Made by a program: the position numbers and the translations under genes. Of a stretch of DNA of 64,000 bases, positions 8,172 to 63,805 are shown piece after piece. Within the stretch, counting starts at the first letter, position 1. Each line of letters opens with the position of its first letter. Source of the stretch: Candidatus Dojkabacteria bacterium. GTDB taxonomy: Bacteria; Patescibacteriota; Dojkabacteria; GCA-002793355. The stretch is taken from positions 758,294-822,293 of the forward strand of contig CP129477.1 of NCBI GenBank assembly GCA_030583825.1, written 5' to 3'. The notes beneath the pieces are model-generated. The model was not told the DNA's origin. It saw nothing but the letters and a program-made list of their open reading frames with translations, and did not search any database.

Positions 8172-8301
8172 ACAACATACTACCCTACTTTTGCGGAGTT
8201 GTGAAGCATATTCGCAAATGAAAAAGAGATTGCTAGAAGTGATTTTTTCAGTTGGTATTTCAGATTCCTATAAAAATATGGTCGGTGTTATAATGTTTAT
8301 A

Positions 8302-49287: not shown

Positions 49288-50970
49288 TTAGTGTATACGA
49301 ATCAGGTAAATACCGTCTTTGCTCCATTCTATAGCATTGGTATAACACTGAGCAACATCTTCTTTTTCGTCGTAGGCTTTTACATTGTTGTCAAAAATGA
49401 CAAAGTCAATGGTATCACTACTTTCTAAAAGTTGGCAGTTACGGTATTGTTCTAAGTATTCGCTATAGCGATGATGTCTTTCCATAAACCCTCCATTGCT
49501 AATAAAGTTTGCCTTTTGCAGGTAAGGATGAAAATCTGTACCAAAATATCCCCATAAATATTCTTTCATATATAAACGCTGTGGTTGTGGTACAACTAAT
49601 ACGTTACTGCCTTCGGGCATAGGAATTTCTGTATATGCCTGAGGAATCTTCACGAAAACGGTATTGCTAACAACGTTTCCTGTCCACCATGGGAAAGATG
49701 TTCCCACCATGCTCATAACTATAACGCAGAATGCGGCAATGAAAAGAAAAGATTTTTTCTTGATAAGATTGACTATTTCGCTAAAAAACGTTGGTAAAAG
49801 AAATATCAGTGGGAAAAATGATAATGCCCATAATTTTGTGGAGCTCCAGCGCAATATTTGATTTACAATGGGCACAAAACGCAGTAAGTTCATTGTGTAA
49901 CCCGAAATAAGTATTTGGGCAACAATCCATAACGAGAGTAGAAATAGAGTACGTCGGGACTTCTTTTTAGTTTGATACACAGTCGCTATTATGACAAGCG
50001 GTGGTAATATTCCCATTAACACAAAGGGAATTGAATCGTAGAGAGGTTCCAGTTCAAAAATTCTCTCTCCTTCGCCCTTGTTTAAGAGCATCCAGCTTGT
50101 TGCGGAACGAACTACGTTTGTTAGAGAATTTCGTTGAATTTCTGCAGCCAGCAATGATTCTGTAACTTCTTGTGACTTTGGATCCTGCGCAATTTCCTGT
50201 CCATACGAAACAATTTCAATCGGTAAAAATACACGGTGCGAGCTCAAAAGAATGAGAAACTGGGTAACAATTGCCCATACTCCCAAAATTGTAATAGCTT
50301 TTATTATCGCATTTTTCCCTTCGCTCCTATCGTTAAGCCATGCGATACTCACGATAGTTGCAGTCACAATAAAAAATCCGAACGCAACGGGATTGATAGA
50401 AGTTCCAAAGAGAAAAAGTATCCCCACAGACTCCAAAATTGTGAGCAAAAGTGTTTTATCTTGTCGGTCGGTGGTAATAAAGTGAATGAACGCTGGTATT
50501 CCTGCAAACGCTGAGGCAAATAATACGATAGGCTGTGAATATATCCACAGCGGTATTAGCGAACTCAATACAAAAAGAAGGCCGAGGATAACGATAATAC
50601 CTTTAAATCGTGTGATTTGCTCTACAATGACTGCTTTTTCCACAAGTTTTATGATAAAAAAGCACCCTATGAAAAATGATCCCCAGTAAAAGATGTGCGA
50701 CACAACCCACGCGGGAATCGAAAAAAACGTAAGAATAATGCTCGGAGTATATAATAGTGGGCCAAATTCAAAGAAATTACTCGAATGTTGAATGTGATAC
50801 CACAGTGTTTCAAATGAGAAGAAAGGAGATCCATTGTCCAAACCCATAATTGTGTATTCAGGGCGTATATTTATAAGTACAGCAATGGACAGAAAAATCC
50901 AAATAAGTACAGGATAGTGGCGGTTTATATACGAGTTCCAAGTTTTATATCTTTCAAAAAGCTTATGCAT
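49288..50970 (-). CDS. polytopic membrane protein (560 aa), putative GT-C glycosyltransferase using a polyprenyl-phosphate-sugar donor
   Basis: About 12 TM segments with a C-terminal soluble domain. Sandwiched between and translationally coupled to GT2 (8-nt overlap) and GT4 (17-nt gap). This mirrors ArnC/ArnT or Dpm1/Pmt pairings. Confidence 0.45.
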   Translation of the reverse strand: MHKLFERYKTWNSYINRHYPVLIWIFLSIAVLINIRPEYTIMGLDNGSPFFSFETLWYHIQHSSNFFEFGPLLYTPSIILTFFSIPAWVVSHIFYWGSFFIGCFFIIKLVEKAVIVEQITRFKGIIVILGLLFVLSSLIPLWIYSQPIVLFASAFAGIPAFIHFITTDRQDKTLLLTILESVGILFLFGTSINPVAFGFFIVTATIVSIAWLNDRSEGKNAIIKAITILGVWAIVTQFLILLSSHRVFLPIEIVSYGQEIAQDPKSQEVTESLLAAEIQRNSLTNVVRSATSWMLLNKGEGERIFELEPLYDSIPFVLMGILPPLVIIATVYQTKKKSRRTLFLLSLWIVAQILISGYTMNLLRFVPIVNQILRWSSTKLWALSFFPLIFLLPTFFSEIVNLIKKKSFLFIAAFCVIVMSMVGTSFPWWTGNVVSNTVFVKIPQAYTEIPMPEGSNVLVVPQPQRLYMKEYLWGYFGTDFHPYLQKANFISNGGFMERHHRYSEYLEQYRNCQLLESSDTIDFVIFDNNVKAYDEKEDVAQCYTNAIEWSKDGIYLIRIH

Positions 50971-51718
50971 GTTCCAGCTTTGAAAATATGCGGTATTTTA
51001 TAACCTGGCGGTACATCTGAATAAACTCTTTTATAACGTTTGGAATTGCTTTTGCAACATTGAGTTTGCTACCGTTTTTTACATACCAAGTACTTGCATG
51101 CTCTTTTGTTTTGTATCCTAGATATTTCATAATGAGCAGAATATTTACGTCGAATGTCCATCCTTTTGCAACAATATATGGCGCAACCTGCTTAATAACT
51201 GGCGCACGAAACAATTTTAGTCCACATTGGGTGTCATTGAAATATAGTCGGAATAAAGTACGAACAGCAATATTAAAAAGTCTACTCATTATATGTCTTG
51301 TAAGCGGAAGATGCCCAATAATCTTGCTTTTCCTCATATATCGGCTTGAAATAATAGCATCATACTCTACATCTCTATGTAAAACACGATACAATGAGAC
51401 AATATCTTGCCCCGGAGAAGCACCATCGGCATCAATAAATCCAATAATATCTCCTTGCGACATAGATACACCTTGCAGCACTGCTTCGCCTTTACCGTTT
51501 ACTTTACCAATATCAATAATTTGCAAGCTTTTAAAACGGTTATCTTTTTTTACTTGTTGGAGAATATCAACAGTTTCGTCTGTTGTGTTGTTAACAATGA
51601 CCAGTACTTCGAAATCTTCTTCGTTGAACCGGGATGTCAGAGAATAATACACATCGAGAATAGTGGGACGGATTCTATGAGCCTCGTCTTTTGCAGGGAT
51701 GATGATTGACAGTTTCAT
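50963..51718 (-). CDS. GT2 glycosyltransferase (polyprenyl-phosphate sugar synthase-like)
   Basis: 251 aa. LSIIIPAKDEAHRI, VIVNNTTDET and the DxD region GFIDADGASP. Confidence 0.8.
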   Translation of the reverse strand: MKLSIIIPAKDEAHRIRPTILDVYYSLTSRFNEEDFEVLVIVNNTTDETVDILQQVKKDNRFKSLQIIDIGKVNGKGEAVLQGVSMSQGDIIGFIDADGASPGQDIVSLYRVLHRDVEYDAIISSRYMRKSKIIGHLPLTRHIMSRLFNIAVRTLFRLYFNDTQCGLKLFRAPVIKQVAPYIVAKGWTFDVNILLIMKYLGYKTKEHASTWYVKNGSKLNVAKAIPNVIKEFIQMYRQVIKYRIFSKLEHA

Positions 51719-51765: not shown

Positions 51766-51990
51766 CTATGACTTAGCGGCCACAGAGTGAAGAAGACGTC
51801 CATAACCGGCAATAACAATACCGATACCATAAACGACTGCTCCAAAAATACCGATAGTATCAAAGTTGTAGCTTGTTTCCTCAGGTGTAATGTACGGACT
51901 TGTTCCCCCGGCTGCATTAACAATAGCTGGAGAAGAGGCAACCATCATCACAACACCAAGAAAAATAGCTATAAGAACTATTTTTTTCAT
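51766..51990 (-). CDS. small membrane/secreted protein (75 aa), paralog of 52231..52461
   Basis: Start at MKKIVLIAI (51990), preceded by a GAGAAAGAGGAAT RBS. N-terminal hydrophobic helix, then GGTSPYITPEETSYNFD, then a second Gly-rich hydrophobic helix. Confidence 0.45.
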   Translation of the reverse strand: MKKIVLIAIFLGVVMMVASSPAIVNAAGGTSPYITPEETSYNFDTIGIFGAVVYGIGIVIAGYGRLLHSVAAKS

Positions 51991-52230
51991 ATTCCTCTTT
52001 CTCAATATTAATTTTACAGAATATTATACTATAGGATTGTATTACTGTCAAGGTGGTACCTACCCTCTTTAGGGTCTATGTACTGAGGGCAATACTTTGC
52101 AACTTGATGAGCAAGAATATAATAAACTGTAAGCTTTAAACGAAAAGAAGGTACAAAAGTAACAGAGATCTATGAGTTTCGAAGTGAGAAATTTCCCAAT
52201 AGTGGGAAGATTTGAATATGGAAAGAAGAA

Positions 52231-52461
52231 TTACTTCTCTGCGTATTTGTTCGAAATGATTTTACCGGCGGTATAAAACAGAATTCCACCGAACCATACG
52301 ACACCGCCGACAATAAAAAGCATATCAAAGTTAATGCTGGTATCTTCTGGATCAACATATGGGCTCCCTGTTGCTGCAATTTTCGGAATTGAAAGAAAAA
52401 GAGTCATCGCAAAATATGCGACGATTGCACTTGCTATGAGGAACAGTTTTTTAGTATTCAT
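52231..52461 (-). CDS. small membrane/secreted protein (76 aa), paralog of 51766..51990
   Basis: Same layout: MNTKKLFLIASAIVAYFAMTLFLSIPKIAATGSPYVDPEDTSINFD, then a Gly-rich helix. Confidence 0.45.
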   Translation of the reverse strand: MNTKKLFLIASAIVAYFAMTLFLSIPKIAATGSPYVDPEDTSINFDMLFIVGGVVWFGGILFYTAGKIISNKYAEK

Positions 52462-52538: not shown

Positions 52539-52796
52539 TTAAAGAATACCTAATAATTTTGCGATAAAGCTGAGTGTACTTTCTGTTGGAATGCCGAGAG
52601 CATTAAATATCCATAACGTTGTTAAAGTTATAACCCAAAGGAATATTGTCTTTATGTATAGTTCGTACTTTACCCACCATGTCTCCTGGTACTTAACAAA
52701 GTCAGTTATTGCGGATCTATATTTTTCCGTAATAGTGTATGTGTCATTGGCCCACTCTTTCATAAGTAGGACGATATCGCGCTCGCTTTGTGTCAT
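52539..52796 (-). CDS. small membrane protein (85 aa), hypothetical
   Basis: ORF with a C-terminal hydrophobic helix. Weak support. Confidence 0.3.
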   Translation of the reverse strand: MTQSERDIVLLMKEWANDTYTITEKYRSAITDFVKYQETWWVKYELYIKTIFLWVITLTTLWIFNALGIPTESTLSFIAKLLGIL

Positions 52797-53092
52797 TATA
52801 AATTTCTCTAATGATGAGATTTTTTAGCTAGTTGTGGGTAACGTCTGTCAATTTCTCTATTTGCTTTACGAAACTCGCGGATTGCAATTTTGAGCATATC
52901 AATAATGACTTGTGATCCGTCTATTTCTCCAGAAGGAGTTTTTGGCACTTTATAGTTTGCCATGTCTTGACAAGAAATCAAATTATATACTCAAGTATAG
53001 CGATTCTGAACGCACATTTCAAACGAAAATGTCGGAACTTGGTAAGAACTTTAGCTATTATAAATTGGGAAAAGTGATCGGTAAACTAAACT

Positions 53093-53791
53093 CTAGCGAG
53101 CGTATCCTGAGTTAGTTCTGTCGGCAAAAATGACAATACGAATAGGAGACTTCAAATATTTACATGTGTACAAGATCATATCTGTATTTGCGGGGTTAAT
53201 AAGAGTGACTTCTTCTACTCTGCGGACAACGTACTCAAACTTACGCTGATTCCAAATGACTGTGAAAGTATCTCCAGGCTTTAGCTTTGGCAAGTTAAAA
53301 AATGAATTTGTTTTTCTGAATTCATTTGTCCATTCAATATATCCGAATCGGTGGGCTGCGAGCACTGTTGGCTTTGTGAAATCTTCGGGATTTCCCCAAT
53401 CAGGAGTTCTCCACATTCCTCGATATAATGCTCTTTTACTGTCCTGTCCTTCGTGAATCGGCCCATTTACCCCAATACTTGGAATAAGTAGTGTATTTGT
53501 TTTAGGTAAATTTGGATCAACTGGCGGTAATATTGGCTCTGCAGGAGTTGGAGTAGGTGTTACAGGTATATTTGACGGTGTTGGCGTTGGAGTTGCGGCC
53601 GCAACGGTGGAAATAGTCAATGTAGCAATTTCGTCTTCAGTGGCATCGGGATTTATCGAGTAGTAAATGTAAGGAAACGCCGGAATCAATACAAAAATAA
53701 GGCCAAGTGCAACGAACACTGCTCCGATTGCTGTGTAAATACGTCCAATTTGCGACAGAAACTGCTGTCTTTCGTTCTGGTAATACTGCAT
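53093..53791 (-). CDS. sortase family transpeptidase
   Basis: 232 aa. N-terminal TM anchor, TPTPTPS...TPTPTPAEP linker, LLIPSIGVNGPIHEG, conserved His in VLAAHRFGY, catalytic Cys in the TLxTC-like MILYTCKY, and a downstream Arg. Confidence 0.8.
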   Translation of the reverse strand: MQYYQNERQQFLSQIGRIYTAIGAVFVALGLIFVLIPAFPYIYYSINPDATEDEIATLTISTVAAATPTPTPSNIPVTPTPTPAEPILPPVDPNLPKTNTLLIPSIGVNGPIHEGQDSKRALYRGMWRTPDWGNPEDFTKPTVLAAHRFGYIEWTNEFRKTNSFFNLPKLKPGDTFTVIWNQRKFEYVVRRVEEVTLINPANTDMILYTCKYLKSPIRIVIFADRTNSGYAR

Positions 53792-53882
53792 ATCTTAATT
53801 ATACTACACATTATATTGTCATCTTCGATTTTCAAATATGAGGTTGCGAGAAAAAAAATAATTCACTATACTGTTCCTGAGC

Positions 53883-55517
53883 ATGGCTTTCACAATATTA
53901 AAAATCAATAAAGAGAAAACTGTTATTTGGGGAAAGCGCCTTACCTTCGTGGTAATCTTGCTATTATCTCTTTTTGGAATCTGGGGAGCTGTCTTCACTT
54001 ATCAAGAATCACTAACCGCTTGGGATGATATTCATACCTGGAAAAATCCAACAGTTATGTATAAAGATTTAGGTAATGAATCAAAGAATACATTAACAGT
54101 AGATGAAGAATCTCAGACAATTCAATACGACATCGAATATTGTGCTTTGTACCAGGTCACTATATCGGCAGACAATATCGAATATAACTGTTCTTATCTC
54201 CCCTACACATATTTAAAAGATTTCGCATTTGATAAAGTCACTAATACGGTATCAGGAGCTCCTATAGGGAAAGATTTCTCTTTTACATATCCACGTAATA
54301 CTGAAAACGCAGTATTTCCTGAAAGCTACCTAAGCCAACCAGTGTTAAATGAAGATTCATTTGCTTCAGATATCGGGAGCGCCGCTGTTCCTGTGAAGTT
54401 TACCGCAGATTTTCGATATGAAAAGCCGGATAAGAACCTATTTTCACTTATAAATCACTACTTTAAATATAGAACGGGAAATTTTTCTGAACTTCGCACA
54501 ACACTACTCTCTTGGTCTATTGAAAATTATGAAATACCACAACAGCCAGATCAGATGTCAGCGTCTGATAGAGATAAAGTTTTAAAAGAATGGGCAGATA
54601 AAGCCTTAGCAGATATTGAAAAATTCTATGGAATAGAAGGAGACATTGCAATGGCGGACTTCTCTGTGAAAGATGTGTTAAACAAGATCAAGAAAAATGA
54701 TGTTGTTTGTAAACTAAATTCCTTATCGAATAACGCAGAATGCTCAACTAAAGATGTTTCATATACAGATACAACTTTAATGCTGTATATGTATGCAAAG
54801 GCATATTCAGATCCAGGAATTGCAGAGAAAATTGCGACAGCAATAAAAGGCACGTACTTTCCTTTTACCGTTACTCGTGATGAAGAAGGAGCAATTGTAA
54901 ATGAACGTATTTCTTTTTCTGGATATCCACTATGCCCTATTATTGAAATTGAACGTGGACGCTTAAATCATGCTAATGTCTCTTTTGCTCGCGAGTATTA
55001 TAATCGAGTGGGATCATGGGTTTCTCATGCTCCACAATTGGTGTCAATTAATATTATAAACAGCGGAGAGAACAATTTATCAACCGTTTTTGTAAATAAT
55101 CCAGCAGCACGTGCGGTAGATACAGTGTGTGTAGACTTTCTGACAAAAAACGAGAAATTAACTGAATCGTATAGATTTGATGCATTATCGAGCGAAGATG
55201 ATAAAAGTGAATTTCATTCGCTTATGTTGTTGCGTTATCTGACATTATTCAAAGAAGGCAAAACGACTGTAAACATTTCTGACAATCATTTGAATTTTGC
55301 TGCTTATCCAACGGATGAATGGAAACAGCTTGCTGCTGAAGATCTTTTTATAAGTACTTTTTTGCATCCCTATAAGTATAACTTTCTGAGTCAACCATAT
55401 ACTTCTCAAGTTGTTGAAACAAATCAAAACTCTGTTGATAATTTAGTAGAATATGTTAAAACAGGAAATGTAGGTCTCACCTTATTAGTTATCTATTCTA
55501 TCTATGCATCGCTCTAA
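53883..55517 (+). CDS. N-terminally TM-anchored extracytoplasmic protein (544 aa), module A partner
   Basis: TM LTFVVILLLSLFGIWGAVF, then W-x-D...WKNP and SQTIQY...YC.LYQVT...YNC motifs shared with the 58926 paralog. Hydrophobic C-terminal 15 aa. Confidence 0.55.
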   Translation: MAFTILKINKEKTVIWGKRLTFVVILLLSLFGIWGAVFTYQESLTAWDDIHTWKNPTVMYKDLGNESKNTLTVDEESQTIQYDIEYCALYQVTISADNIEYNCSYLPYTYLKDFAFDKVTNTVSGAPIGKDFSFTYPRNTENAVFPESYLSQPVLNEDSFASDIGSAAVPVKFTADFRYEKPDKNLFSLINHYFKYRTGNFSELRTTLLSWSIENYEIPQQPDQMSASDRDKVLKEWADKALADIEKFYGIEGDIAMADFSVKDVLNKIKKNDVVCKLNSLSNNAECSTKDVSYTDTTLMLYMYAKAYSDPGIAEKIATAIKGTYFPFTVTRDEEGAIVNERISFSGYPLCPIIEIERGRLNHANVSFAREYYNRVGSWVSHAPQLVSINIINSGENNLSTVFVNNPAARAVDTVCVDFLTKNEKLTESYRFDALSSEDDKSEFHSLMLLRYLTLFKEGKTTVNISDNHLNFAAYPTDEWKQLAAEDLFISTFLHPYKYNFLSQPYTSQVVETNQNSVDNLVEYVKTGNVGLTLLVIYSIYASL

Positions 55518-58500
55518 ATATTTAAAAATCTTTATCACGGCACTCTTCGTATGTTTTTCTCTATTTATTAGTATTCCTTCGGTAGAAGCTCAATATACAA
55601 ACTTATGTGGATCAGGTATTGGAGGAAGTTTTTATGGTTGTTCAGCCAACTGTAGTACATCCGGCCAGTCTTGCTCGGGCCCATATGTAGGAAGGTATGT
55701 CTGTAATGGACGTCATAATGAATGTGGTGGCGGTGGAGCGACTCCTTTTAGCCAGCAGGAAATTACTAACGGTACTCTTTATATGAATGCGGCATGTGGA
55801 CAAACAGTGCAGTTGGATGTATGGAGCGATAGATTTTATGGAAACTTAACAGGGTATATGGTCTATTATGGTGGTGATTGTACAGTAACAACTCCTCCAC
55901 CGACTCAGTCTCCTCCTCCGCCTATTTGTACATCCTGTTCCTCATATAATAACTGTCAATCGGGCACGCCTCCTTCAAAGTTTAGGCAGACACCTCAAAA
56001 TTACAGCGGTAGCTGGAGAACTTGTTATAACGGTCAGACATGTGGTTCTTCTAGTCCGTGTAATTGTCCTTCTACCGGTGGTAACTGTTATTGGACTCAT
56101 TACTATAACTCTGCGCCATCCTGCTCTATTTCTCTCGATAGAACAAGCGTAACTCGTGAAGATGCACCAATAAATATGAGATTGACTGTCTCTGACGCGG
56201 ACTATGGTGACACAGTTGAAATTACTGGATTTGAAGTTTCAAACTACTGTGCCCAAATCAGAACACAAGGTGGTACTTCTCTCTCAAACGGTATTGTCGT
56301 TAAGTTAGGATCTGATAGTCCTGGCTACACAACTCAGGTGAATAATTTTGTTCTTAACCAACAACTCGCGCACGGAGTGTTCAACTATATAGGAGGAACT
56401 TCCCTATGTCAGGCAACAGTAACAATACAAATTACAGATAGAGTCGGTGATTCAGGAGATTCTCAAGCTACACGAACATGTAGTGCTTCTTTTAGCGTGA
56501 CAAACCATGCTCCTTACCTTGTGAGCGCAGAAATGATAGATAGAGACCCTGTTACTTCACTACGACGACAAACAAACCTTGTTGATGGTATTAATGGTTC
56601 TCCTCCAACTGTTTGGGTCTCATCTCAAAGTTTTGATCAAAGACCTGCACAGTGTAATGCTTCAGTAGATCTTAATGGGAACCCTATTACAGATTGTAAC
56701 CCTAAAACGCCAATCAGAACGAAATCAAATCCATTCGAATTAGGCTTTACGGTCAATGATAATAACGGAAGCAAAGATATCAATTATGCAGGGGTATGGA
56801 TCCAACGAGTAGATATTCCTAACGGTGCAGTCGCTCCAGTTTATCCGCCAGTTGCGTCCTCAGTTCGACGAAGCTTAGCATTCTTTTATTCTGATTATAA
56901 CGATAGGTTTATCGGTTCTGGAAATCATTGGATTACTCGTGCAGACTTTAATACCAATTTAGTAACAGGAACTAATCGTCTTGCGGGTATGCGACTTGGT
57001 GGCGGTGGAATTGGAAACTCTTCGTCGCCTTATCGTTCAAGCTTATATAGAGAATGGCAAACGGTAGGATTTCCTGACTGTTATGATTCATCCGCGTCTT
57101 GTAATAGTTCGAATATTCCAACTAACAGCCGAAACTTTTTTAATGGAACACTTGCGGATTACCATAACTACTTGTGGGATGTTGTTGCAACAAGCAATAA
57201 CTACATATGTTATGACAACTCAATGTATCCACGTATTTCATCTAGCTGTGATAATTCATGCGCTGCATGTGTACGAAGATCACAAACGAATTCTGTTCTT
57301 CAAATGGGCCCAAATGCGATTCGATTTGGGTTTGAATTGCAAATAAATGAGCAAATGGCTGAGGGACGGTACGCTATTTTGCTTATGGCAGATGATAAAG
57401 TCGGTGCGACACTAAACAATGGCCCGCAATGGGGATCCTTTACTCGTAGAGGAGTCTACTGCTCAAATTGTGGTGCTGATCAGTTTATTATGGGTATAGA
57501 TAAAACGCCTCCAACCTACACTACCCGCTTCCGCGAAGGTATCGGAGATGAAATTTATGCAGACGTTGCGAATATTGCAGACAATCTTTCGGGTTATGCC
57601 GGATTGTATAGAATCATTTATTACAAGCAGGATCCAACCGGTCAACGGGCATTCTTGACAAATGCAGCAGGAAATTGTCAGTACAATGGACAGCAAAACT
57701 GTTACACAGGTGCAACTCCACAAAGTGGCTTTACATTTGTCGGTTACGGTGTGCGAGGTGCGGATATTGTGCACTCTTATGTATGTCTCTACGACGTCGC
57801 AGGAAACGGTGGATGTCGCCTTGATGACATGAATCCAGCGTTTGTTGCTCAGGATAACTGGATGAAAACGTCAATGGGCTCAATATATAGCAATACAAGT
57901 GCGCTAAGTACTTCAGCATTTCAGATTCAAGTTCCGGCAAACCCTCCAAACGTAGATATTGCTCAAACACTAGCAGCAGACTTACTGTATGCACCATTTA
58001 CTGACCAGAGAAATACTGTTGTTTCTGGGGCATATGTATCTGCAGCAAGCGCTCCTGGTGTGTCTGGAGGAAATAGCAATAGGCAGGGAGGAACTGGCGG
58101 AGATTATCGTCAGCTCTCGGCTACAAACAGACTTAATGTTACTGGAATTATTGACAACTCAGGAACACGATACGGTACTGGTGGTTGGTATGCTCGAATG
58201 CTGTCGTTAGCTAACTATAATTGTCCAATTTTGAAAGCACGAGGAACAGTCACACCTGCAGGGCTTAATAGTCAGTGTCAGGAATTTACCAGCGGTAACT
58301 TAGTGGCTTTGGATCAGATGGAAAACCCATCGGTGCAAAATAAAATGATTACACTTAACCTTCCAACAGGAAGCAGAACTCGTACAACGCGCGATTATAC
58401 ATGTTCGAGAAATAACATCATTTTTGTTGCATCAGGTCACTTGGAATGGACTCGTCAGTTGCGTAAAACCACTTCAACAGGGATATCAAGCACATGTGTC

Positions 58501-58857
58501 TTTGTTGTCGCGAATGGCGCGACTTTGACAATTGGTGATGAGCCGAATAATGAGCATGCGACAAATGTTGATAGATTCCAGGCAGGTATTATTGCTGACG
58601 GTAATATTGTTGTCGAGCTTGGAGCCAGAGGTTCTAACGGTCAATTTGATATGCTCCAGCTTCATGGGTTTGTGTTTGCTGCAAGAAGTACTCCACGGTT
58701 TGAGCGTGACTTGATCTTCTCGATTAACAAACAGCTTCCGTCAGAATACCTGGTGTATGACCCGTTGGTTATTGACTCGATGCGACCACTGCTTGGAACA
58801 ACACAATACAGTGAATTCAGATGTGGAACATCTTCACATCCAGTTTGTGCTGATTAG
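55504..58857 (+). CDS. giant secreted Cys-rich protein (1117 aa), module A
   Basis: Signal peptide (cleavage likely after SVEA). Cys-rich N-terminal region, PPPTQSPPPP linker, and blocks SPSCSISLDRTSVTREDAPINM, GDTVEITG and GIGDEIYADVANIADNLSGYAGLYRIIYYKQDP. About 60% identical to 60428..63805. Start overlaps the previous gene by 14 nt. Confidence 0.6.
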   Translation: MHRSKYLKIFITALFVCFSLFISIPSVEAQYTNLCGSGIGGSFYGCSANCSTSGQSCSGPYVGRYVCNGRHNECGGGGATPFSQQEITNGTLYMNAACGQTVQLDVWSDRFYGNLTGYMVYYGGDCTVTTPPPTQSPPPPICTSCSSYNNCQSGTPPSKFRQTPQNYSGSWRTCYNGQTCGSSSPCNCPSTGGNCYWTHYYNSAPSCSISLDRTSVTREDAPINMRLTVSDADYGDTVEITGFEVSNYCAQIRTQGGTSLSNGIVVKLGSDSPGYTTQVNNFVLNQQLAHGVFNYIGGTSLCQATVTIQITDRVGDSGDSQATRTCSASFSVTNHAPYLVSAEMIDRDPVTSLRRQTNLVDGINGSPPTVWVSSQSFDQRPAQCNASVDLNGNPITDCNPKTPIRTKSNPFELGFTVNDNNGSKDINYAGVWIQRVDIPNGAVAPVYPPVASSVRRSLAFFYSDYNDRFIGSGNHWITRADFNTNLVTGTNRLAGMRLGGGGIGNSSSPYRSSLYREWQTVGFPDCYDSSASCNSSNIPTNSRNFFNGTLADYHNYLWDVVATSNNYICYDNSMYPRISSSCDNSCAACVRRSQTNSVLQMGPNAIRFGFELQINEQMAEGRYAILLMADDKVGATLNNGPQWGSFTRRGVYCSNCGADQFIMGIDKTPPTYTTRFREGIGDEIYADVANIADNLSGYAGLYRIIYYKQDPTGQRAFLTNAAGNCQYNGQQNCYTGATPQSGFTFVGYGVRGADIVHSYVCLYDVAGNGGCRLDDMNPAFVAQDNWMKTSMGSIYSNTSALSTSAFQIQVPANPPNVDIAQTLAADLLYAPFTDQRNTVVSGAYVSAASAPGVSGGNSNRQGGTGGDYRQLSATNRLNVTGIIDNSGTRYGTGGWYARMLSLANYNCPILKARGTVTPAGLNSQCQEFTSGNLVALDQMENPSVQNKMITLNLPTGSRTRTTRDYTCSRNNIIFVASGHLEWTRQLRKTTSTGISSTCVFVVANGATLTIGDEPNNEHATNVDRFQAGIIADGNIVVELGARGSNGQFDMLQLHGFVFAARSTPRFERDLIFSINKQLPSEYLVYDPLVIDSMRPLLGTTQYSEFRCGTSSHPVCAD

Positions 58858-58925
58858 CGCTAATCCCTAGTTTCTTTTGACAGTGAAAGGTTGACGTAGG
58901 CGTTTTTTTTAGGCATTATTATGGT

Positions 58926-60425
58926 ATGAAGTCAGTGTTTCGAAACGCGCGTTTCTGGAAAATTATCATCGGAATTGTTTTATTACTTGTAATGTCTGGT
59001 GCTGCTGTCGTTTTCATTTCAAACCTTGTGTGGGAAGATGATTCTTCATGGAAAAATCCTCAATTTAACTATTTTGACCCAGGTACCGAAGCCGGCGAAC
59101 TAAAGCTCGTTATTAATGATCACAACGACAAGTCGCAGACTATCAAAGTTGAAAATTGTACTCTCTTTTCTGTAACGACTGAAAATGATGTTACAAAGTA
59201 CGTTTGTACGACAGCTCCTCTTGCAGAAGTCGTTAGAAATCCTGGACTCGCAGAAGATCCTCATACCCATATTGTTGTATTTGACTACATAAAAGATAAG
59301 ACACCTCTTCCTGAAGCGTATGTTGGGATGGATTCTCTTTCAGAGTTTTCGTTTATCGGTACAATTTCAGATCCGGTTCAGGTCAATTTTACAGTGAGCT
59401 ATATTCAGAATAAGCCGGAGAAATCTTTGCTTCCCTCGATTATTCATGCGTGGAATTGGATCGTAAGTAAGCAGCATGGATTGTATACGACAACAATTCG
59501 TTCCTGGAAAGTAGATACAACAAAAACAATTTCGCAGCTAACGTTTTACCCAACTCCGGAAAATATTGAAGCGGAAGTACTTTCTCCTTGGGCATATTCA
59601 GATGATGAGATTACTCCAACTCCTGCTCTTCCCGCTGTCTCTGAATTGGAGAATACATTTGCATCTATTGTAAGGTCTGTAAAAGAACGAAATTTTTCTC
59701 TCTACGAGCAAAATGCAGTACAGAATCGAGTATGGCAAACAGCAAACAATGGCGAGCTTGCTGGATTTACTAAAGAAGGTACTCGTGTACTTATTCATCG
59801 TGGTTTAACAGGTGAACAAAATTGGAAGCAAACTCCCGCAGGAACTTGTGGTGTTTTTGCAACTATGTCACATCCTCAAGTAGAAGGTGTTCAATTTGTA
59901 ACGTTTGAGGGCCCACGCTACTCATCTGTTAATATTTCTGCTCCGGATTCAAGTGGACGCTGGATTATGGTGTTTCCAGATGGTCGAGCTCAATATGTAC
60001 AAGATACCGGATGGCGCTACCAGTTACTACAGACATTTTATGCAAAACAAGGTGAACATCTTATTGCCAAAGCAGATATTTCATTTGCATACGATAATGG
60101 GAAATGGCGTTACTATGGTGGATTGTGGGAATATAACTACGATTACCAGGGTGAGCATGGTGCAAAAGAGCCAGCAAATGTAACATTTGATGGAAACGAA
60201 AAGAATGAATACCCTTCGACAATCGAGATTTCTGAAGGACAGGTTGTCGCATGGAAAAATCTTTATGGTATGGTAACAGCTATAGATCCAATCAGAAATG
60301 ATTACTGGGGAGGCATGACTCTCTTAGGTGGAACTTTCAAGCAAAAATTTGATGTTCCAGGAGAATATACATATAGAATTTGCTCAACAGTAAATGAGCG
60401 ATTGGGTAAAGTTATTGTAAAATAA
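58926..60425 (+). CDS. N-terminally TM-anchored extracytoplasmic protein (499 aa), module B partner (distant paralog of 53883..55517)
   Basis: TM IIIGIVLLLVMSGAAVVFI. WEDDSSWKNP, SQTIKVENCTLFSVT...YVC and DK(N/S)L.PSIIH blocks shared with module A. Confidence 0.55.
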   Translation: MKSVFRNARFWKIIIGIVLLLVMSGAAVVFISNLVWEDDSSWKNPQFNYFDPGTEAGELKLVINDHNDKSQTIKVENCTLFSVTTENDVTKYVCTTAPLAEVVRNPGLAEDPHTHIVVFDYIKDKTPLPEAYVGMDSLSEFSFIGTISDPVQVNFTVSYIQNKPEKSLLPSIIHAWNWIVSKQHGLYTTTIRSWKVDTTKTISQLTFYPTPENIEAEVLSPWAYSDDEITPTPALPAVSELENTFASIVRSVKERNFSLYEQNAVQNRVWQTANNGELAGFTKEGTRVLIHRGLTGEQNWKQTPAGTCGVFATMSHPQVEGVQFVTFEGPRYSSVNISAPDSSGRWIMVFPDGRAQYVQDTGWRYQLLQTFYAKQGEHLIAKADISFAYDNGKWRYYGGLWEYNYDYQGEHGAKEPANVTFDGNEKNEYPSTIEISEGQVVAWKNLYGMVTAIDPIRNDYWGGMTLLGGTFKQKFDVPGEYTYRICSTVNERLGKVIVK

Positions 60426-60427
60426 GT

Positions 60428-63400
60428 ATGATTGTAATTAGGTTGCCAAAAATATTTGTATTAATTATTGCAGCGATAATAGGAAGTATTAGCCTACTCT
60501 CTTTTGTCCCTACTGTAGATGCAAATGTCATGCTTACTCAATGTGCAGCATGTAATAACATTGGCAATACTTGTGTCGAAATTTCGGGTTACCAGTGTGC
60601 TTCTCAGGCTGTTATTCAAGCAACCTGCGGAGGAGTAGCTCCAGGATACGAAGACTATTGGTGTTTTAGAAAAAATGGTGAAGATTATTATTGTGCCGCA
60701 CTTGTAAATATCTCAGATAAAGCATGTGGAAACCGATGTATTCGTGTAACTCGTAAATCAGGCGGCGGCGGTGGTGGCGGAGGGCCAACATCACCTCCAC
60801 CAGTGACTACTCCATGGCCAAGTACTCCTCCACCAACATATTGGCCAACACCAACACCTCCCCCACCTCCTCCATACTGTACTCCGGAACAAGGATATAA
60901 TACCTGTCAGCCATCGGAGGCTCCAACAAAATTTAGAACAAGACCAGTATCGTATAGCTGTGAAATTAAAACCGCTTATCCAGGTGGATGGCAGTGTTCA
61001 AGTCAATCGCCATGTTCATGTGGTAGTAGTATCTCGTACTCTTCGTATGTAAGGTACTATAACAACAGTCCGTCCTGCTCTATTTCTTTAGACAGAACAA
61101 GCGTAACACGTGAAGATGCGCCAATAAATATGAACTTAACAGTTACTGATGCGGATTATGGAGACACAGTCGAAATTACTGGATACCGAGTTGAAAACCA
61201 CTGTGCATTAATTCGCACAACAGGTGGAGCATCTCTCTCTAACGGTATTGTTGTAAAACTAGGTTCAGATAGCCCTGGTTACACAATGCAAAATAACCAA
61301 TTTGTTATTAACCAGCAAATTGCGCATGGAGTGTATACTGGCAACCCATCACTGTGTCAGGCGCGTGTCGTTATTGAAATTCGTGACAGAATTGGTGAGG
61401 CCGGCGATACACAAGATGTCGCGCAGTGTTCTGCAACATTTACTGTTCGAAACGAAGCTCCTCAATTAACAGGCGTGGAGTTATACGATCGTGATCCTGT
61501 CAACTCATTACGAAGGCCAGGAAACTTAGTGAATGGTTCAGCAGCAGTATGGGTTTCTTCGCAGGACTTTAATGCTCGACCAGCACAATGTAATTCGCCG
61601 GTAGATGTTGACGGTAATCCTCCAACAGATTGTGATCCTGAAACACCAATTGTGACAAAAACAAATCCATTCGAATTTTTCTTTACTGTTCGTGATGGAA
61701 ACGGTGCACGAGACATTAACTATGGCGGTATTTGGTTACAGCGAAGTGACATTCCGAATGGAGCAAATGCCCCTGTTTACCCAGTTGTTTCTGGAGGATC
61801 AAGAACAAGTATTACTGCAATGTATTCCGACTATTCAGATAGATTTATTTCAAACGGATTCCATTGGATAACACGTGCAGACTTAAATGCAAACCTTGCG
61901 ACAGGAACAAACCGTTTCTCTGGTATGAGAATTGGCGGAAGCGGAACAGGAAATTCATCGAGTCCATTTAGGTCAAGCCTATATCGTGAATGGCAAATTG
62001 CAGGATTTCCAGACTGTCTTGAAACATCATATGGATGTCAAACATCGAATATTCCTCCATCAAGCCAAGGCGGGTTTGGAGGAAATGCAGGGAATTATCA
62101 CGACTATTTATGGGATGTTGTTTCAAATACAAACAACTACATTTGTTACGATAACTCTTTGTCGCCACGTGTTACTTCGACTTGTGATAACTCGTGTGCT
62201 GCATGTATTCGTCGTTCGCAGACAAATGCAATTCAGCAGGTGGACAATAATACAGTAAAGTTCGGCTTTGAAATCCAGGCAAACGAGACTCTTGGCGAAG
62301 GACGCTACTCTATTTTGCTTATGGCAGATGATAAGGTCGGTGTTGGACTAAATGCCGGCCCGCAATGGGGAGCATTTACACGAAATGGCGCCTATTGTAC
62401 AAACTGTGGATCGAATCAATTTGTGCTTGGAATAGACAAATCATTCCCAACATATACTACTCGCTTCCGCGAAGGTATTGGTGATGAAATTTACGCAGAT
62501 GTAGCAAATATTACAGATAATCTTTCCGGTTACGCAGGACTTTACAGAATTATTTACTACAAGCAGGATCCAGAAGGCATTCGAACATTCCTTACAAACG
62601 CTGGACTTAATTGTCAGTATAATGGTCAACAAAATTGTTACACTGGCCCAACTCCGCAGAGCGGTTTTACTTTTCTAGGGTATGGCGTGCGTGGTAAAGA
62701 TATTGTCCATGCATACGTCTGTTTGTATGATGTCGCCGGAAACGGTGGCTGCCGACGCGACGATATGAACCCCGAATTTGTTGCGCAAGCAAACTGGATG
62801 AAAACATCAATGGGAAGTATTTACTCGAACGTAAGCGCCAGCTCGGCAAGCGCGTTTAGTGTTCAGATGCCATCTAACCCACCGAATACTGACCAGTCAC
62901 TTGCAGATGATATTCTCTATGCTCCATACTTTAACTCGAATTTGCACGATTACTCATTTACAAACAGCGCGTATATCTCAGCAGCGATTGCACCGGGAAT
63001 TTCAGGTGGTCAGCAAAATCAACAAGGTGGCGTTCAAGGTTTTTACCGCCGACTTGATGCAGCGCACCTCTTTAACAGGACAGGAATTATTGATAATTCG
63101 GGCACACGTATTGGTTCTGGAGGTTGGTATGCTCGAATTCTTTCGATTGCAAACTATAACTGTCCGGGACTTCGTAATTTGGGAACGACATCGGAGCTTG
63201 GAGTAAATAACCGATGCCATACCTTTACAGAAAATAGTGCATCAATGCTTCAAGGGCGACTTGCAGATGCATCGTCGCAGAACAAAATCATTATTTTGAA
63301 TTTGCCGAATGGTATTCAGAATGTGAACACAGATCTAACATGCCGAAATACGAACATTATATTTATTGCCAGTGGAACGTTAGCAATAAATGGTCAGTTG

Positions 63401-63805
63401 AGAAAATCACGAGCAGGTCTTGCTTCTGATGCTTGTGTCTTTGTCGTAAACGAAGGTGCAACATTACAAATTGGAGATTTGCCAGAAAGCCAGTCGCTTG
63501 CGGGTACAACAGAAATTGACCGATTCGAAGCAGGTATTATTGCAGACGGAAACTTTATTACTGAGCTTGGAACAAGAGGATCAAATGGCAAGTTTGATCA
63601 ATTGCAGATTCATGGGTTTGTATACGCAGCAAAAACAACACCGCTATTCCTTCGCGACTTGGTCTTCTCTGAAAACCGACAATTACCGTCAGAGTGGATT
63701 ATCTACGATGCACAAATGAATGATGCCTTGCGAAGTCTCCTCGGAGTTTCACGTTACAGCGACCTCCGCTGTGGCGCATCATCTCACCCTGTGTGTGAGC
63801 AATAA
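60428..63805 (+). CDS. giant secreted Cys-rich protein (1125 aa), module B (paralog of 55504..58857)
   Basis: Signal peptide. Cys-rich N-domain, a Gly8 run, a Pro/Thr linker (PTSPPPVTTPWPSTPPPTYWPTPTPPPPPPY), then domains collinear with module A. Starts 2 nt after the previous stop. Confidence 0.6.
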   Translation: MIVIRLPKIFVLIIAAIIGSISLLSFVPTVDANVMLTQCAACNNIGNTCVEISGYQCASQAVIQATCGGVAPGYEDYWCFRKNGEDYYCAALVNISDKACGNRCIRVTRKSGGGGGGGGPTSPPPVTTPWPSTPPPTYWPTPTPPPPPPYCTPEQGYNTCQPSEAPTKFRTRPVSYSCEIKTAYPGGWQCSSQSPCSCGSSISYSSYVRYYNNSPSCSISLDRTSVTREDAPINMNLTVTDADYGDTVEITGYRVENHCALIRTTGGASLSNGIVVKLGSDSPGYTMQNNQFVINQQIAHGVYTGNPSLCQARVVIEIRDRIGEAGDTQDVAQCSATFTVRNEAPQLTGVELYDRDPVNSLRRPGNLVNGSAAVWVSSQDFNARPAQCNSPVDVDGNPPTDCDPETPIVTKTNPFEFFFTVRDGNGARDINYGGIWLQRSDIPNGANAPVYPVVSGGSRTSITAMYSDYSDRFISNGFHWITRADLNANLATGTNRFSGMRIGGSGTGNSSSPFRSSLYREWQIAGFPDCLETSYGCQTSNIPPSSQGGFGGNAGNYHDYLWDVVSNTNNYICYDNSLSPRVTSTCDNSCAACIRRSQTNAIQQVDNNTVKFGFEIQANETLGEGRYSILLMADDKVGVGLNAGPQWGAFTRNGAYCTNCGSNQFVLGIDKSFPTYTTRFREGIGDEIYADVANITDNLSGYAGLYRIIYYKQDPEGIRTFLTNAGLNCQYNGQQNCYTGPTPQSGFTFLGYGVRGKDIVHAYVCLYDVAGNGGCRRDDMNPEFVAQANWMKTSMGSIYSNVSASSASAFSVQMPSNPPNTDQSLADDILYAPYFNSNLHDYSFTNSAYISAAIAPGISGGQQNQQGGVQGFYRRLDAAHLFNRTGIIDNSGTRIGSGGWYARILSIANYNCPGLRNLGTTSELGVNNRCHTFTENSASMLQGRLADASSQNKIIILNLPNGIQNVNTDLTCRNTNIIFIASGTLAINGQLRKSRAGLASDACVFVVNEGATLQIGDLPESQSLAGTTEIDRFEAGIIADGNFITELGTRGSNGKFDQLQIHGFVYAAKTTPLFLRDLVFSENRQLPSEWIIYDAQMNDALRSLLGVSRYSDLRCGASSHPVCEQ

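What the first reader, a model, noticed from the sequence alone, without database searches (positions are those of the whole stretch)
53093..63805. Tandemly duplicated two-gene surface module (TM-anchored ~500-aa protein plus ~1120-aa secreted Cys-rich protein) next to a sortase
Seen in sequence:
- Genes 53883-55517 and 55504-58857 (module A) are repeated as 58926-60425 and 60428-63805 (module B).
- The large proteins share long near-identical blocks (SPSCSISLDRTSVTREDAPINM, GDTVEITG, GIGDEIYADVANI.DNLSGYAGLYRIIYYKQDP) at roughly 60% identity overall.
- The N-terminal Cys-rich regions and Pro/Thr/Gly linkers are diverged.
- The small partners are much more diverged (about 25% identity) but keep WKNP and SQTI..C motifs.
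- Within each module the genes are translationally coupled (14-nt overlap in A, 2-nt gap in B).
- A sortase gene lies immediately upstream on the opposite strand.

Inference:
- None of the four proteins matches a family I can name.
- The conserved pairing of a membrane anchor/chaperone-like partner with a giant cysteine-rich exoprotein, amplified in tandem and diversifying at the N-terminus, looks like a host-interaction or adhesin/effector system.
- Such systems are known in reduced-genome episymbionts.
- None of the four carries an obvious LPXTG sorting signal, so how or whether the sortase acts on them is open.
Basis: partly seen in the sequence, partly recalled or inferred. Interest (0 to 1): 0.78.

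Follow-up and report, generated by a model that had tools for sequence, protein, structure and literature searches.

The report
Sortase-linked paired surface-protein cassette, duplicated
This stretch of an uncultured ultra-small (Patescibacteria/CPR) bacterium carries two tandem copies of an unannotated gene pair, a membrane-anchored ~500-aa protein plus a secreted cysteine-rich ~1,100-aa protein built like an adhesin, next to a sortase whose likely substrates lie on its other side.

Summary
The five ORFs sit at the stated coordinates. The large proteins are 64% identical over 976 aa. The small ones match only over the first ~240 aa (29%).

None of the four proteins matches Pfam, NCBIfam or PDB sequences. 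A whole-library profile search found about 20 near-full-length relatives at the 50%-identity cluster level, all in Patescibacteria.

- **Pairing:** small→large holds in all 19 modules examined.
- **Sortase:** one lies directly upstream in 7 of 14 loci.
- **Fold:** a good AlphaFold model (pLDDT 82) shows a signal peptide, a Cys-rich β head, a Pro/Thr linker, a string of Ig/PKD-like β-sandwiches and a C-terminal β-helix of ice-binding-protein (DUF3494)-like fold. This is adhesin-like, with no enzyme or toxin domain.

New findings:
- The sortase's probable substrates lie on its other side. They are two ~75-aa proteins with a signal peptide, a 'TPxxT(S/G)' motif, a TM helix and a basic tail. Relatives carry ~300-aa versions.
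- The variable unit is the small gene plus the head-coding 5′ end of the large gene.

Best reading: a conserved CPR surface adhesin-like cassette. The adhesive function and the partner's anchoring role are inferred, not shown.

The parts
51766..52005 (-). Tiny protein 2 (79 aa; an ATG at 51990 gives a 74-aa form). Signal peptide, 'AAGGTSPYITPEETSYNFD', TM helix and a basic tail. Candidate sortase substrate or sortase-associated membrane peptide.
   Evidence: Conserved in L001 and L003. It shares the P-x-x-T-[SG]...D + TM + basic-tail signal with the ~300-aa proteins upstream of the sortase in L007, L011 and L017.
52023..52051 (-). Perfect sigma-70 consensus (TTGACA-17-TATAAT) just upstream of tiny protein 2.
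   Evidence: 12 of 12 matches. Region-wide promoter counts are not above the shuffle controls, so this is a lead only.
52231..52461 (-). Tiny protein 1 (76 aa). Signal peptide, 'ATGSPYVDPEDTSINFD', TM helix and a basic tail. Candidate sortase substrate.
53093..53791 (-). Sortase (232 aa). N-terminal TM anchor, Pro/Thr linker and catalytic domain with His146, Cys209 (LYTCK) and Arg217.
   Evidence: Pfam PF04203, E = 1.9e-11. No class-specific NCBIfam model reaches its cut-off. No PDB sequence match. Catalytic residues are invariant in 7 orthologues.
53800..55900 (+). Hypervariable cassette: small A plus the head-coding 5' end of large A.
   Evidence: Nucleotide identity to the syntenic locus L001 falls to 38-53% across this block, against 62-77% in the flanks. 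Small-partner identity tracks head identity: partial r = 0.67 given the body, 0 of 5000 permutations reach it.
53883..55517 (+). Small partner A (544 aa). Bitopic protein with a basic N-terminus, one TM segment and a ~500-aa predicted extracellular part. Carries W..D...WKNP, C..C..P, H192, SW211 and YPLCPIxE motifs and a short hydrophobic C-terminal tail.
   Evidence: No family match.
55504..55587 (+). Large A signal peptide (aa 1-28, ...SVEA|Q).
   Evidence: Hydrophobic segment 9-27. Helix 4-21 in the model.
55588..55878 (+). Large A head (aa 29-125), an 'A-type' Cys-rich β domain (YTNLCGSG...CGQTVQLDV...GYMVYYGGDC).
   Evidence: pLDDT about 90. At least 74 other secreted proteins carry this domain at their N-terminus.
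55879..56100 (+). Pro/Thr linker and conserved Cys-rich neck (aa 126-199).
   Evidence: pLDDT below 50. Cys142, 151 and 188 are conserved in all 18 aligned members, and Cys174 and 195 in 83-89%.
56101..57918 (+). Large A body (aa 200-805), a string of Ig/PKD-like β-sandwich domains with conserved disulfide cysteines.
58171..58857 (+). Large A C-terminal module (aa 890-1117): a long α-helix packed against a β-helix, ending in the invariant C-G-x-S-x-H-P-x-C loop.
58926..60425 (+). Small partner B (499 aa). It has the same TM segment and N-terminal ~230-aa domain as A, but a different C-terminal half.
   Evidence: Its orthologue in L001 is 56% identical.
60428..63805 (+). Large B (1125 aa). Signal peptide, a 'B-type' Cys-rich head, a Gly/Pro linker, then the same body and C-terminal module as large A.

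Best explanation
The region is a lineage-specific cell-surface gene cluster of a Patescibacteria (CPR) bacterium. Its closest named relatives are Dojkabacteria-type MAGs.

Each module encodes two proteins.
- The large protein is a Sec-exported, disulfide-rich fibrillar protein. From N to C it has a variable Cys-rich head, a Pro/Thr linker, an Ig/PKD-like β-sandwich stalk and a conserved C-terminal β-helix module. It has no membrane or wall anchor of its own.
- The small protein is translationally coupled to it. It is a bitopic membrane protein with a large extracellular part.

Most likely mechanism (inferred):
- The small protein's conserved membrane-proximal ~230-aa domain docks or assembles the anchorless large protein at the cell surface through the large protein's conserved C-terminal part. 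This presents the variable head outward as a binding (adhesin-like) element.
- The neighbouring sortase does not process these four proteins in the classical way. Its cognate substrates are encoded on its other side. In this genome they are reduced to two ~75-aa proteins carrying a non-canonical 'TPxxT(S/G)...D + TM + basic tail' sorting signal.
- Sortase, substrates and modules are co-inherited as one surface-structure locus.
- The small gene plus the head-coding part of the large gene form the variable cassette. The body and C-terminal module are the conserved scaffold.

Shown: export signals, domain architecture, fold classes, conserved cysteines, the pairing, the synteny and the mosaic variability.

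Inferred: disulfide formation, small-large docking, adhesion or host binding, and sortase specificity.
For: - **ORFs and paralogy:**
- **Export and anchoring:** signal peptides on the large proteins, one N-terminal TM in the small ones, 41 and 39 Cys. Of the 41 Cys of large A, 27 are conserved in at least 80% of 18 family members.
- **No known family:**
- **Family size and modularity:** 134 profile hits, about 20 of them near full length. The C-terminal module and the head also occur separately in other proteins.
- **Taxonomy:** Patescibacteria.
- **Pairing and sortase link:** pairing in 19 of 19 modules, sortase directly upstream in 7 of 14 loci.
- **Structure:** pLDDT 82.1. Fold matches are to Ig-like arrays of Gram-positive adhesins and complement MG domains, and to PKD and the IBP-1/DUF3494 β-helix.
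- **Sortase substrates:** conserved tiny proteins. Homologous signals occur on ~300-aa secreted proteins directly upstream of the sortase in L007, L011 and L017.
- **Sortase catalytic residues:** the triad is invariant.
- **Domain shared by both small types:** only the TM segment and the first ~230 aa.
- **Variable cassette:**
- **Literature:** CPR genomes are known to encode large Cys-rich extracellular proteins proposed to mediate attachment (PMC4736985). [quoted passage not shown]
Against: - No result shows that the small and large proteins bind each other. No structure was obtained for the small protein.
- The sortase is absent from half of the loci, so it is not needed for every module.
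- The co-variation of small partner and head may only reflect physical adjacency in one recombination block.
- Proteins that carry only the head have no small partner.
- Distant relatives that carry the C-terminal module lie in type IV pilus clusters, not next to sortases.
- The mature part of the tiny 'substrates' would be only ~12 residues, which is odd for a wall-anchored protein.
Confidence: 0.5

Rival explanations
1. Sortase-built heteromeric surface fibre. The sortase cleaves the tiny or ~300-aa substrates at T|S/G. The acyl intermediate is then resolved by an amine (a Lys or the N-terminus) on the anchorless large protein or on the small partner, so the cluster's products become covalently joined, as in Gram-positive pilus assembly.
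For: - The arrangement sortase substrates - sortase - small - large is conserved in 7 loci spanning about 30% sequence identity.
- The large proteins lack any anchor.
- The head domain occurs elsewhere on proteins with LPXTG-like signals.
- Pilus-type sortase chemistry is established knowledge.
Against: - No pilin motif (YPKN-like) or class C sortase signature was found. The class C model scores 25.7 bits against a cut-off of 160.
- Half of the modules have no adjacent sortase.
- Nothing tested here bears on cross-linking.
Confidence: 0.15
2. Type IV pilus-associated adhesin. The large protein is a PilY1/MshQ-like accessory protein displayed by, or working with, type IV pili encoded elsewhere in the genome.
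For: - Distant family members that share the C-terminal module lie inside T4P clusters. P0044 sits directly upstream of PilM. P0042 and a 688-aa member sit between prepilin peptidase/pilins and PilM.
- P0031 carries DUF2341. The link of DUF2341 to MshQ is from my own knowledge.
- T4P drive Saccharibacteria episymbiosis (abstract of PMC11623550).
Against: - No pilus gene appears in the 64-kb window, among the ORFs of at least 150 aa that were scanned, or among the called genes of the contexts examined for close relatives.
- The signal peptides are Sec-type, not prepilin-type.
- The proteins upstream of the T4P-linked relatives are not detectably related to the small partner.
Confidence: 0.12
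3. Polymorphic effector with a cognate partner. The variable Cys-rich head is a toxin or effector, and the co-varying small protein is its specific immunity or neutralising partner, a mirror image of CDI/Rhs toxin-immunity cassettes.
For: - The small partner and the head vary together as one contiguous cassette on a conserved scaffold.
- Several head types sit on one body.
- Each genome examined has several copies.
Against: - No toxin domain was detected.
- The small partner is a ~500-aa extracellular membrane protein, unlike typical immunity proteins.
- The same head occurs on many structural or anchored proteins that have no small partner.
- Co-variation is expected from adjacency alone.
Confidence: 0.08
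4. Structural envelope component (S-layer-like or wall-associated scaffold) with no specific binding role.
For: - The neighbouring genes are a cell-envelope/glycosyltransferase cluster at 41-52 kb.
- The locus keeps its chromosomal position next to a UvrD/AddA-type helicase gene.
Against: - The very high Cys content is unusual for S-layer proteins (my own knowledge).
- No SLH or other wall-binding domain was found.
- A variable head and a fast-evolving partner are not expected of a pure scaffold.
Confidence: 0.08

Closest known systems
Gram-positive fibrillar adhesins (MSCRAMMs such as ClfB/SdrD; antigen I/II C123)
   Same: An N-terminal signal peptide, a distal head, and a stalk of tandem Ig-like β-sandwich domains. 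These structures are among the best Foldseek matches. A sortase is encoded nearby.
   Different: There is no C-terminal LPXTG/TM/basic sorting signal, and there are 39-41 cysteines. The C-terminus is a β-helix module. A dedicated membrane-anchored partner gene is always present upstream. There is no sequence-level homology.
Large cysteine-rich extracellular proteins of CPR bacteria (Peribacteria; PMC4736985)
   Same: Large, signal-peptide-bearing, Cys-rich proteins of CPR genomes with no functional prediction. They were proposed to mediate attachment, and strain variation was noted.
   Different: That paper describes a general class averaging about 1,655 aa and about 7% Cys. Here a specific family is defined, with a fixed architecture, an obligate partner gene and a sortase link. 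Homology to the Peribacteria proteins was not tested.
Sortase-dependent surface display and pilus loci; SafA, the small TM protein linked to actinobacterial SrtA (PMC9282373)
   Same: The sortase has the His-Cys-Arg triad. Neighbouring genes end in a motif + TM + basic tail. Tiny membrane proteins are genetically linked to the sortase.
   Different: The motif is TPxxT(S/G), with two residues between Pro and Thr, not LPXTG. The sortase fits none of the class C, D or E models. The tiny proteins have a cleavable signal peptide and no FPW motif, so they are not SafA homologues. Their mature ectodomain would be only about 12 residues.
Ice-binding-protein fold (IBP-1 / DUF3494 β-solenoid)
   Different: Nothing in Pfam-A reached E < 0.1, so no DUF3494 match was found. 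Sequence identity is about 12%. The module ends in a conserved disulfide loop. No reason to expect ice binding.
Type IV pilus-associated large proteins (PilY1/MshQ type)
   Same: Distant family members are encoded inside T4P clusters, and one carries DUF2341.
   Different: The window's clade is sortase-linked rather than pilus-linked. There is no β-propeller or vWA domain and no prepilin signal.
Two-gene exoprotein systems with a variable cassette (TpsB/TpsA; CdiA-CT/CdiI)
   Same: A small gene is coupled to a gene for a protein of more than 1,000 aa. A conserved scaffold carries a swappable terminal domain that co-varies with the adjacent gene.
   Different: This is an analogy only. The cell envelope is presumably of the single-membrane (monoderm) type, as the Gram-positive-type sortase suggests; this was not tested. 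No β-barrel transporter, TPS domain or toxin domain is present. The variable end is N-terminal and the partner lies upstream.

Membership tests
Sortase (PF04203) | Match to the sortase domain above Pfam's gathering score | tested here: met
   44.2 bits against a cut-off of 26.6, E = 1.9e-11, residues 101-224.
Sortase (PF04203) | Catalytic His, Cys (TLxTC-like) and Arg | tested here: met
   H146 (AAHR), C209 (LYTCK) and R217 are invariant in 7 orthologues.
Sortase classes C, D and E (NCBIfam) | Score above the class model's cut-off | tested here: not met
   Class C scores 25.7 (cut-off 160), class D 21.1 (cut-off 165) and class E 17.5 (cut-off 160). The enzyme remains unclassified.
LPXTG-type sortase substrates (the four module proteins) | C-terminal sorting motif, then a hydrophobic segment, then a basic tail | tested here: not met
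   No C-terminal TM-like segment in any of the four. The only motif-like match is an internal TPQSG with no TM after it.
Sortase substrates (tiny proteins 51766-52005 and 52231-52461) | Signal peptide plus a tripartite C-terminal signal, conserved next to the sortase | tested here: met
   Both have a signal peptide, P-x-x-T-[SG]...D, a TM helix and K/R. The same signal occurs on ~300-aa proteins upstream of the sortase in L007, L011 and L017. Cleavage itself cannot be tested with these tools.
Ice-binding / DUF3494 family | Sequence match to the family model | tested here: not met
Ig-like / PKD β-sandwich domains | β-sandwich fold superposable on PKD or Ig domains | tested here: met
Polymorphic toxin systems | A recognisable toxin domain with a small cognate immunity gene | tested here: not met
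   No toxin family in Pfam or NCBIfam. The partner is a ~500-aa membrane protein.
Type IV pilins / prepilin-processed proteins | Class III signal peptide (G|FTLxE followed by a hydrophobic helix) | tested here: not met
   The N-termini are Sec-type (large) or a plain TM anchor (small).
S-layer proteins | SLH or another wall-binding module; usually Cys-poor | tested here: not met
   No such Pfam domain. 39-41 Cys per protein.

The most novel reading that the evidence does not exclude
The cluster encodes a previously undescribed surface-display system for monoderm CPR bacteria with two unusual features.

First, an anchorless, disulfide-knotted giant adhesin is held by a dedicated bitopic partner. 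That partner is exchanged together with the adhesin's head as a single specificity cassette.

Second, a sortase of an unclassified type uses a TPxxT(S/G) signal and ~12-residue 'minimal' substrates. These would serve to tag or tether the complex covalently, rather than to display a protein domain.
Probability: 0.15. Interest if true: 0.8.

Novelty: new variant of a known kind. Interest (0 to 1): 0.55.

Why it matters
How ultra-small CPR/Patescibacteria recognise and hold on to their hosts is largely unknown beyond type IV pili. This locus defines three undescribed protein families or domains: the large scaffold with its C-terminal β-helix module, the small partner, and a ~105-aa Cys-rich head domain.

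It also gives a clear genetic architecture: a conserved scaffold with a swappable partner-plus-head cassette, and a sortase with a non-canonical sorting signal. These are concrete, testable candidates for host-specificity determinants.

The sorting signal offers a bioinformatic handle for finding the sortase-dependent surface proteome in these lineages.

Tried and rejected
- **Word-indexed searches for the small protein:** both the single sequence and the 11-sequence profile returned nothing, not even the known relatives. This is uninformative about family size.
- **First GTDB scan:** large B alone found nothing. The profile scan did succeed.
- **First AlphaFold run:** 6 sequences gave pLDDT 41 and was unusable. 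It was replaced by an 82-row alignment.
- **AFDB Foldseek library:** unavailable.
- **BFVD search:** only generic FN3/Ig arrays, so no phage link.
- **PDB sequence and profile searches:** nothing for the large, small or sortase proteins.
- **RNA genes:** no tRNA or Rfam element in the window.
- **Promoter and terminator scans:** counts not above shuffles.
- **C-terminal tail of small A (…YVKTGNVGLTLLVIYSIYASL):** considered as a cryptic sorting signal and rejected. It is not conserved as a motif, has no basic tail and is absent from small B.
- **Small-partner homology in T4P-linked relatives:** hhalign against the proteins upstream found no relationship. There is only a weak hint for L020.
- **Enzyme reading of the β-helix (lyase or glycosidase):** rejected for lack of any catalytic family match. 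The best β-helix fold matches are ice-binding proteins and autotransporter passengers.

Full report
**1. Observation**

- sortase 53093-53791(-)
- small A 53883-55517(+)
- large A 55504-58857(+)
- small B 58926-60425(+)
- large B 60428-63805(+)

The 14-nt overlap in module A and the 2-nt gap in module B follow from these coordinates.

The alignment starts only after residue ~150, so the N-terminal heads are unrelated.

The small pair is related at E = 4e-16, but only over the first ~240 residues (29% identity). The C-terminal halves are different.

The large proteins have a Sec-type signal peptide and 41 and 39 cysteines. The seven other window proteins counted have 0-8. The small proteins have one N-terminal TM segment after a basic N-terminus, so their bulk is predicted to lie outside the cell. 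None of the four has a C-terminal hydrophobic segment or a sorting motif.

The sortase call is sound: PF04203 is above its cut-off, and His146, Cys209 and Arg217 are invariant.

**2. Is it a known family?**

No. None of the four proteins gets a significant match. Pfam and NCBIfam give nothing better than E≈0.08, far below the cut-offs, and PDB sequence and profile searches give nothing better than E≈0.3.

The word-indexed search found only five relatives of large B among 5.8 billion clusters. An exhaustive profile search of 1.84 billion representatives found 134 hits. They fall into three groups:
- About 20 relatives covering most of the length, at 24-41% identity.
- About 40 proteins that share only the C-terminal ~150-250 residues.
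- About 74 proteins that share only the N-terminal Cys-rich head of large A.

The protein is therefore modular. A profile scan of GTDB genomes places the family in Patescibacteria. The records include Ca. Dojkabacteria cMAG.26, 'Patescibacteria group bacterium BroJett019', a MAG labelled Saccharibacteria and a Magasanikiibacteriota fragment.

The window itself is ordinary chromosome. It carries gyrA, ruvAB, aaRS genes and efp, and a glycosyltransferase/envelope cluster at 41-52 kb directly upstream of the locus.

**3. Conserved anatomy across genomes**

In 15 loci with usable upstream sequence, every large gene is directly preceded by a small-family gene, 19 modules of 19.

Tandem duplication occurs in the window and in L001, L003, L006 and L008. 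Two complete or near-complete genomes instead carry two separate single modules each. A third assembly (CAZCKT01) carries a tandem pair plus one further module (L008, L012).

In an NJ tree the copies from one lineage group together. This means either repeated lineage-specific duplication or homogenisation of the bodies by gene conversion.

A sortase orthologue lies directly upstream in 7 loci: the window, L001, L003, L006, L007, L011 and L017.
- In 4 loci with at least 6 kb upstream, no sortase is present.
- In 3 loci with only 1.2-1.7 kb upstream, none is seen.
- In both genomes with two separate loci, exactly one locus has the sortase.

The sortase link is therefore real but not obligatory per module.

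**4. What the sortase acts on**

Downstream of the sortase on its own strand lie two conserved ~75-aa genes, 52231-52461(-) and 51766-52005(-). Each has a signal peptide, then S-P-Y-[IV]-[TD]-P-E-[ED]-T-S-x-N-F-D, then a TM helix and a basic tail. Both are conserved in L001 and L003.

A scan of all fetched loci for the pattern 'motif + TM + basic tail' found matches next to the sortase in six of the seven sortase-linked loci. The only others were three short ORFs with no such context.

In L007, L011 and L017 the gene or genes directly upstream of the sortase encode ~300-aa secreted proteins. Each has a globular part and a long Pro/Thr stalk, and ends in ...(H)TP(E/K/T)DTGFAD(D/N) + TM + basic tail.

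This is the classical tripartite sorting-signal layout with a non-canonical motif, in which two residues separate Pro from Thr. The simplest reading is that these proteins are the sortase's substrates, not the module proteins.

In the window's lineage the substrates have shrunk to the signal itself, which would leave about 12 mature residues. Why is unexplained. A SafA-like role as a small sortase-associated membrane factor is an alternative (PMC9282373), but they lack SafA's FPW motif.

A perfect TTGACA-17-TATAAT sits just upstream of the second tiny gene. The scan as a whole is not above chance.

**5. Structure of the large protein**

With 6 sequences AlphaFold failed, at pLDDT 41. I then built an 82-row alignment from full-length relatives, trimmed C-terminal modules and trimmed heads. 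This gave pLDDT 82.1 and pTM 0.63, with 656 residues at 90 or above.

| Residues (large A) | Feature |
|---|---|
| 1-28 | signal peptide |
| 29-125 | compact β head |
| 126-199 | Pro/Thr linker and Cys-rich neck (low confidence) |
| 200-805 | successive β-sandwich domains |
| 806-867 | low-confidence segment |
| 890-1117 | long α-helix packed on a β-helix, ending in an invariant C-G-x-S-x-H-P-x-C loop |

Fold searches gave the following.
- Foldseek against the PDB returns tandem Ig-like arrays: complement C3/C4 and α2-macroglobulin MG domains, antigen I/II C123, ClfB, SdrD and titin. TM-scores normalised to the query are 0.15 or less, so this is a class resemblance.
- The viral library gives only FN3/Ig arrays.

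No enzymatic or toxin fold appears.

Of the 41 cysteines of large A, 27 are conserved in at least 80% of 18 family members. This fits a disulfide-stabilised extracellular protein.

**6. The head**

The head of large A is a member of a widespread, undescribed ~105-aa domain: YTNLCGSG..C..C...G.C.G..V.K.TC.G...C...CGKTVQIDVF.K.C...W.C...L.GYMVWYSGDC.

It sits at the N-terminus of many secreted CPR proteins, usually followed by a Pro/Thr linker. Downstream parts include SdrD_B, SpaA-like and DUF11/CLIPPER domains, and even a papain-like peptidase. Several of these proteins end in LPXTG-like signals: TPKTG, LAATG or MPKAG, each followed by a TM helix and a basic tail.

Two head-only proteins checked in context have no small partner upstream.

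Large B, L001A and L003B carry other head types.

**7. What varies**

The small partner evolves far faster than the large protein. Between the window and the syntenic L001:

| Protein | Identity, window vs L001 |
|---|---|
| sortase | 78% |
| large A | 67% |
| small A | 26% |
| large B | 77% |
| small B | 56% |

Across 18 modules, small-partner identity correlates with head identity (r = 0.74) much better than with body identity (r = 0.46). The partial correlation given the body is 0.67, and 0 of 5000 permutations reach it. The pattern holds when close pairs are removed.

At the nucleotide level, window against L001 shows one contiguous low-identity block at about 53.8-55.9 kb (38-53%). It covers small A and the head-coding part of large A, and it ends near the head-linker junction. 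The flanks are 62-77% identical.

So the variable unit is 'small gene + head' and the conserved unit is 'body + C-terminal module'. This could reflect a functional small-head relationship, or simply that the two are adjacent in one recombining or fast-evolving block. The data cannot separate these.

What all small proteins share, including the B type, is the TM segment and the first ~230 residues. That makes this domain the best candidate for the conserved function, such as docking the conserved part of the large protein.

**8. Wider relatives**

Distant proteins that carry the C-terminal module and parts of the body also have Sec signals and Cys-rich N-termini. Two of the three contexts examined are type IV pilus clusters:
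- P0044 lies directly before pilM.
- P0042 and a 688-aa member lie between prepilin peptidase/pilins and pilM.

The third context (L020) has two members in tandem. Its 535-aa upstream protein shows the small-family FPLCPV and D..C motifs, but only at 24% hhalign probability. The proteins upstream of the T4P-linked members are not detectably related to the small partner.

The superfamily therefore seems tied to cell-surface appendage loci in general. The window's clade is the sortase-linked branch.

**9. Verdict**

The best-supported reading is a conserved Patescibacteria surface cassette. An exported, disulfide-rich, adhesin-like fibrillar protein is coupled to a membrane-anchored partner. Both are co-inherited with a sortase that has its own non-canonical substrates.

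Adhesion or host binding and small-large docking are inferences from architecture, synteny and the literature on CPR surface proteins (PMC4736985, PMC6744442). They are not results.

This is a new variant of a known kind, fibrillar surface adhesins and sortase loci. Its undescribed parts are the large and small protein families, the head domain, the TPxxT(S/G) signal with its minimal substrates, and the partner-plus-head variable cassette.

Noticed in passing
window 51766-52005(-) and 52231-52461(-): Two conserved ~75-aa proteins consist of little more than a signal peptide and a sortase-type sorting signal (SPY[IV][TD]PE[ED]TS.NFD + TM + basic tail). A perfect sigma-70 consensus lies at 52051->52023(-). 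Why a sorting signal would be kept without a passenger domain is unexplained.
   Followed up: partly
window 55588-55878 (large A residues 29-125); proteins P0038-P0137: The Cys-rich head is a widespread, unannotated ~105-aa domain at the N-terminus of at least 74 clusters of secreted CPR proteins. Their downstream parts are diverse: SdrD_B, SpaA-like, DUF11/CLIPPER and papain-like peptidase domains. Some end in LPXTG-like signals.
   Followed up: partly
L018 2219-5500, L019 140-3421, L021 6001-8472 and 9846-11912: Distant relatives that share the C-terminal β-helix module are encoded inside type IV pilus gene clusters, next to pilM, pilins and prepilin peptidase.
   Followed up: partly
window 52600-53100: A ~0.5-kb stretch between tiny protein 1 and the sortase has no counterpart in the syntenic locus L001 (6-21% identity). 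It includes the non-conserved 85-aa ORF 52539-52796(-).
   Followed up: no
window 42090-45560(+) and 45557-48244(+): Two overlapping genes encode giant polytopic membrane proteins (1156 and 895 aa, with 11 and 13 TM-like segments by the hydropathy scan). Neither has a Pfam match. They sit in a glycosyltransferase cluster with GT4 at 48158-49270, a 560-aa protein with no Pfam match at 49288-50970 (its orthologue lies beside the sortase in L003) and GT2 at 50963-51718.
   Followed up: no
window 34005-36689(-): An 894-aa protein combines a class II (Asp/Lys/Asn-type) aminoacyl-tRNA synthetase core with tRNA_bind and B3_4 domains. This is an unusual fusion.
   Followed up: no
window 16886-17965(-) and 17974-18537(-): A class II aaRS-like protein matching only the catalytic-core family (tRNA-synt_2), with no anticodon-binding domain hit, lies next to EF-P. 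This looks like an EpmA/PoxA-EF-P pair.
   Followed up: no
window 3544-7521(-) and 8065-9441(+): A 1325-aa protein with no Pfam match and a Gly/Arg-rich tail lies near a tyrosine recombinase (Phage_integrase). This may be a mobile-element remnant.
   Followed up: no
window 27061-30339(-), 24887-27004(-), 31261-33282(+): A 1092-aa membrane protein carries a trypsin-like domain. Next to it are a 705-aa Pro/Ala-rich protein with no Pfam match and a 673-aa SDH/ClpP-like protease. Together they form another cluster of large envelope proteins.
   Followed up: no
L020 19-1626: A 535-aa TM protein lies upstream of two tandem distant large-family members. It carries the small-family motifs FPLCPV and D..C, but hhalign probability is only 24%. 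The pairing may extend further than sequence searches can show.
   Followed up: partly
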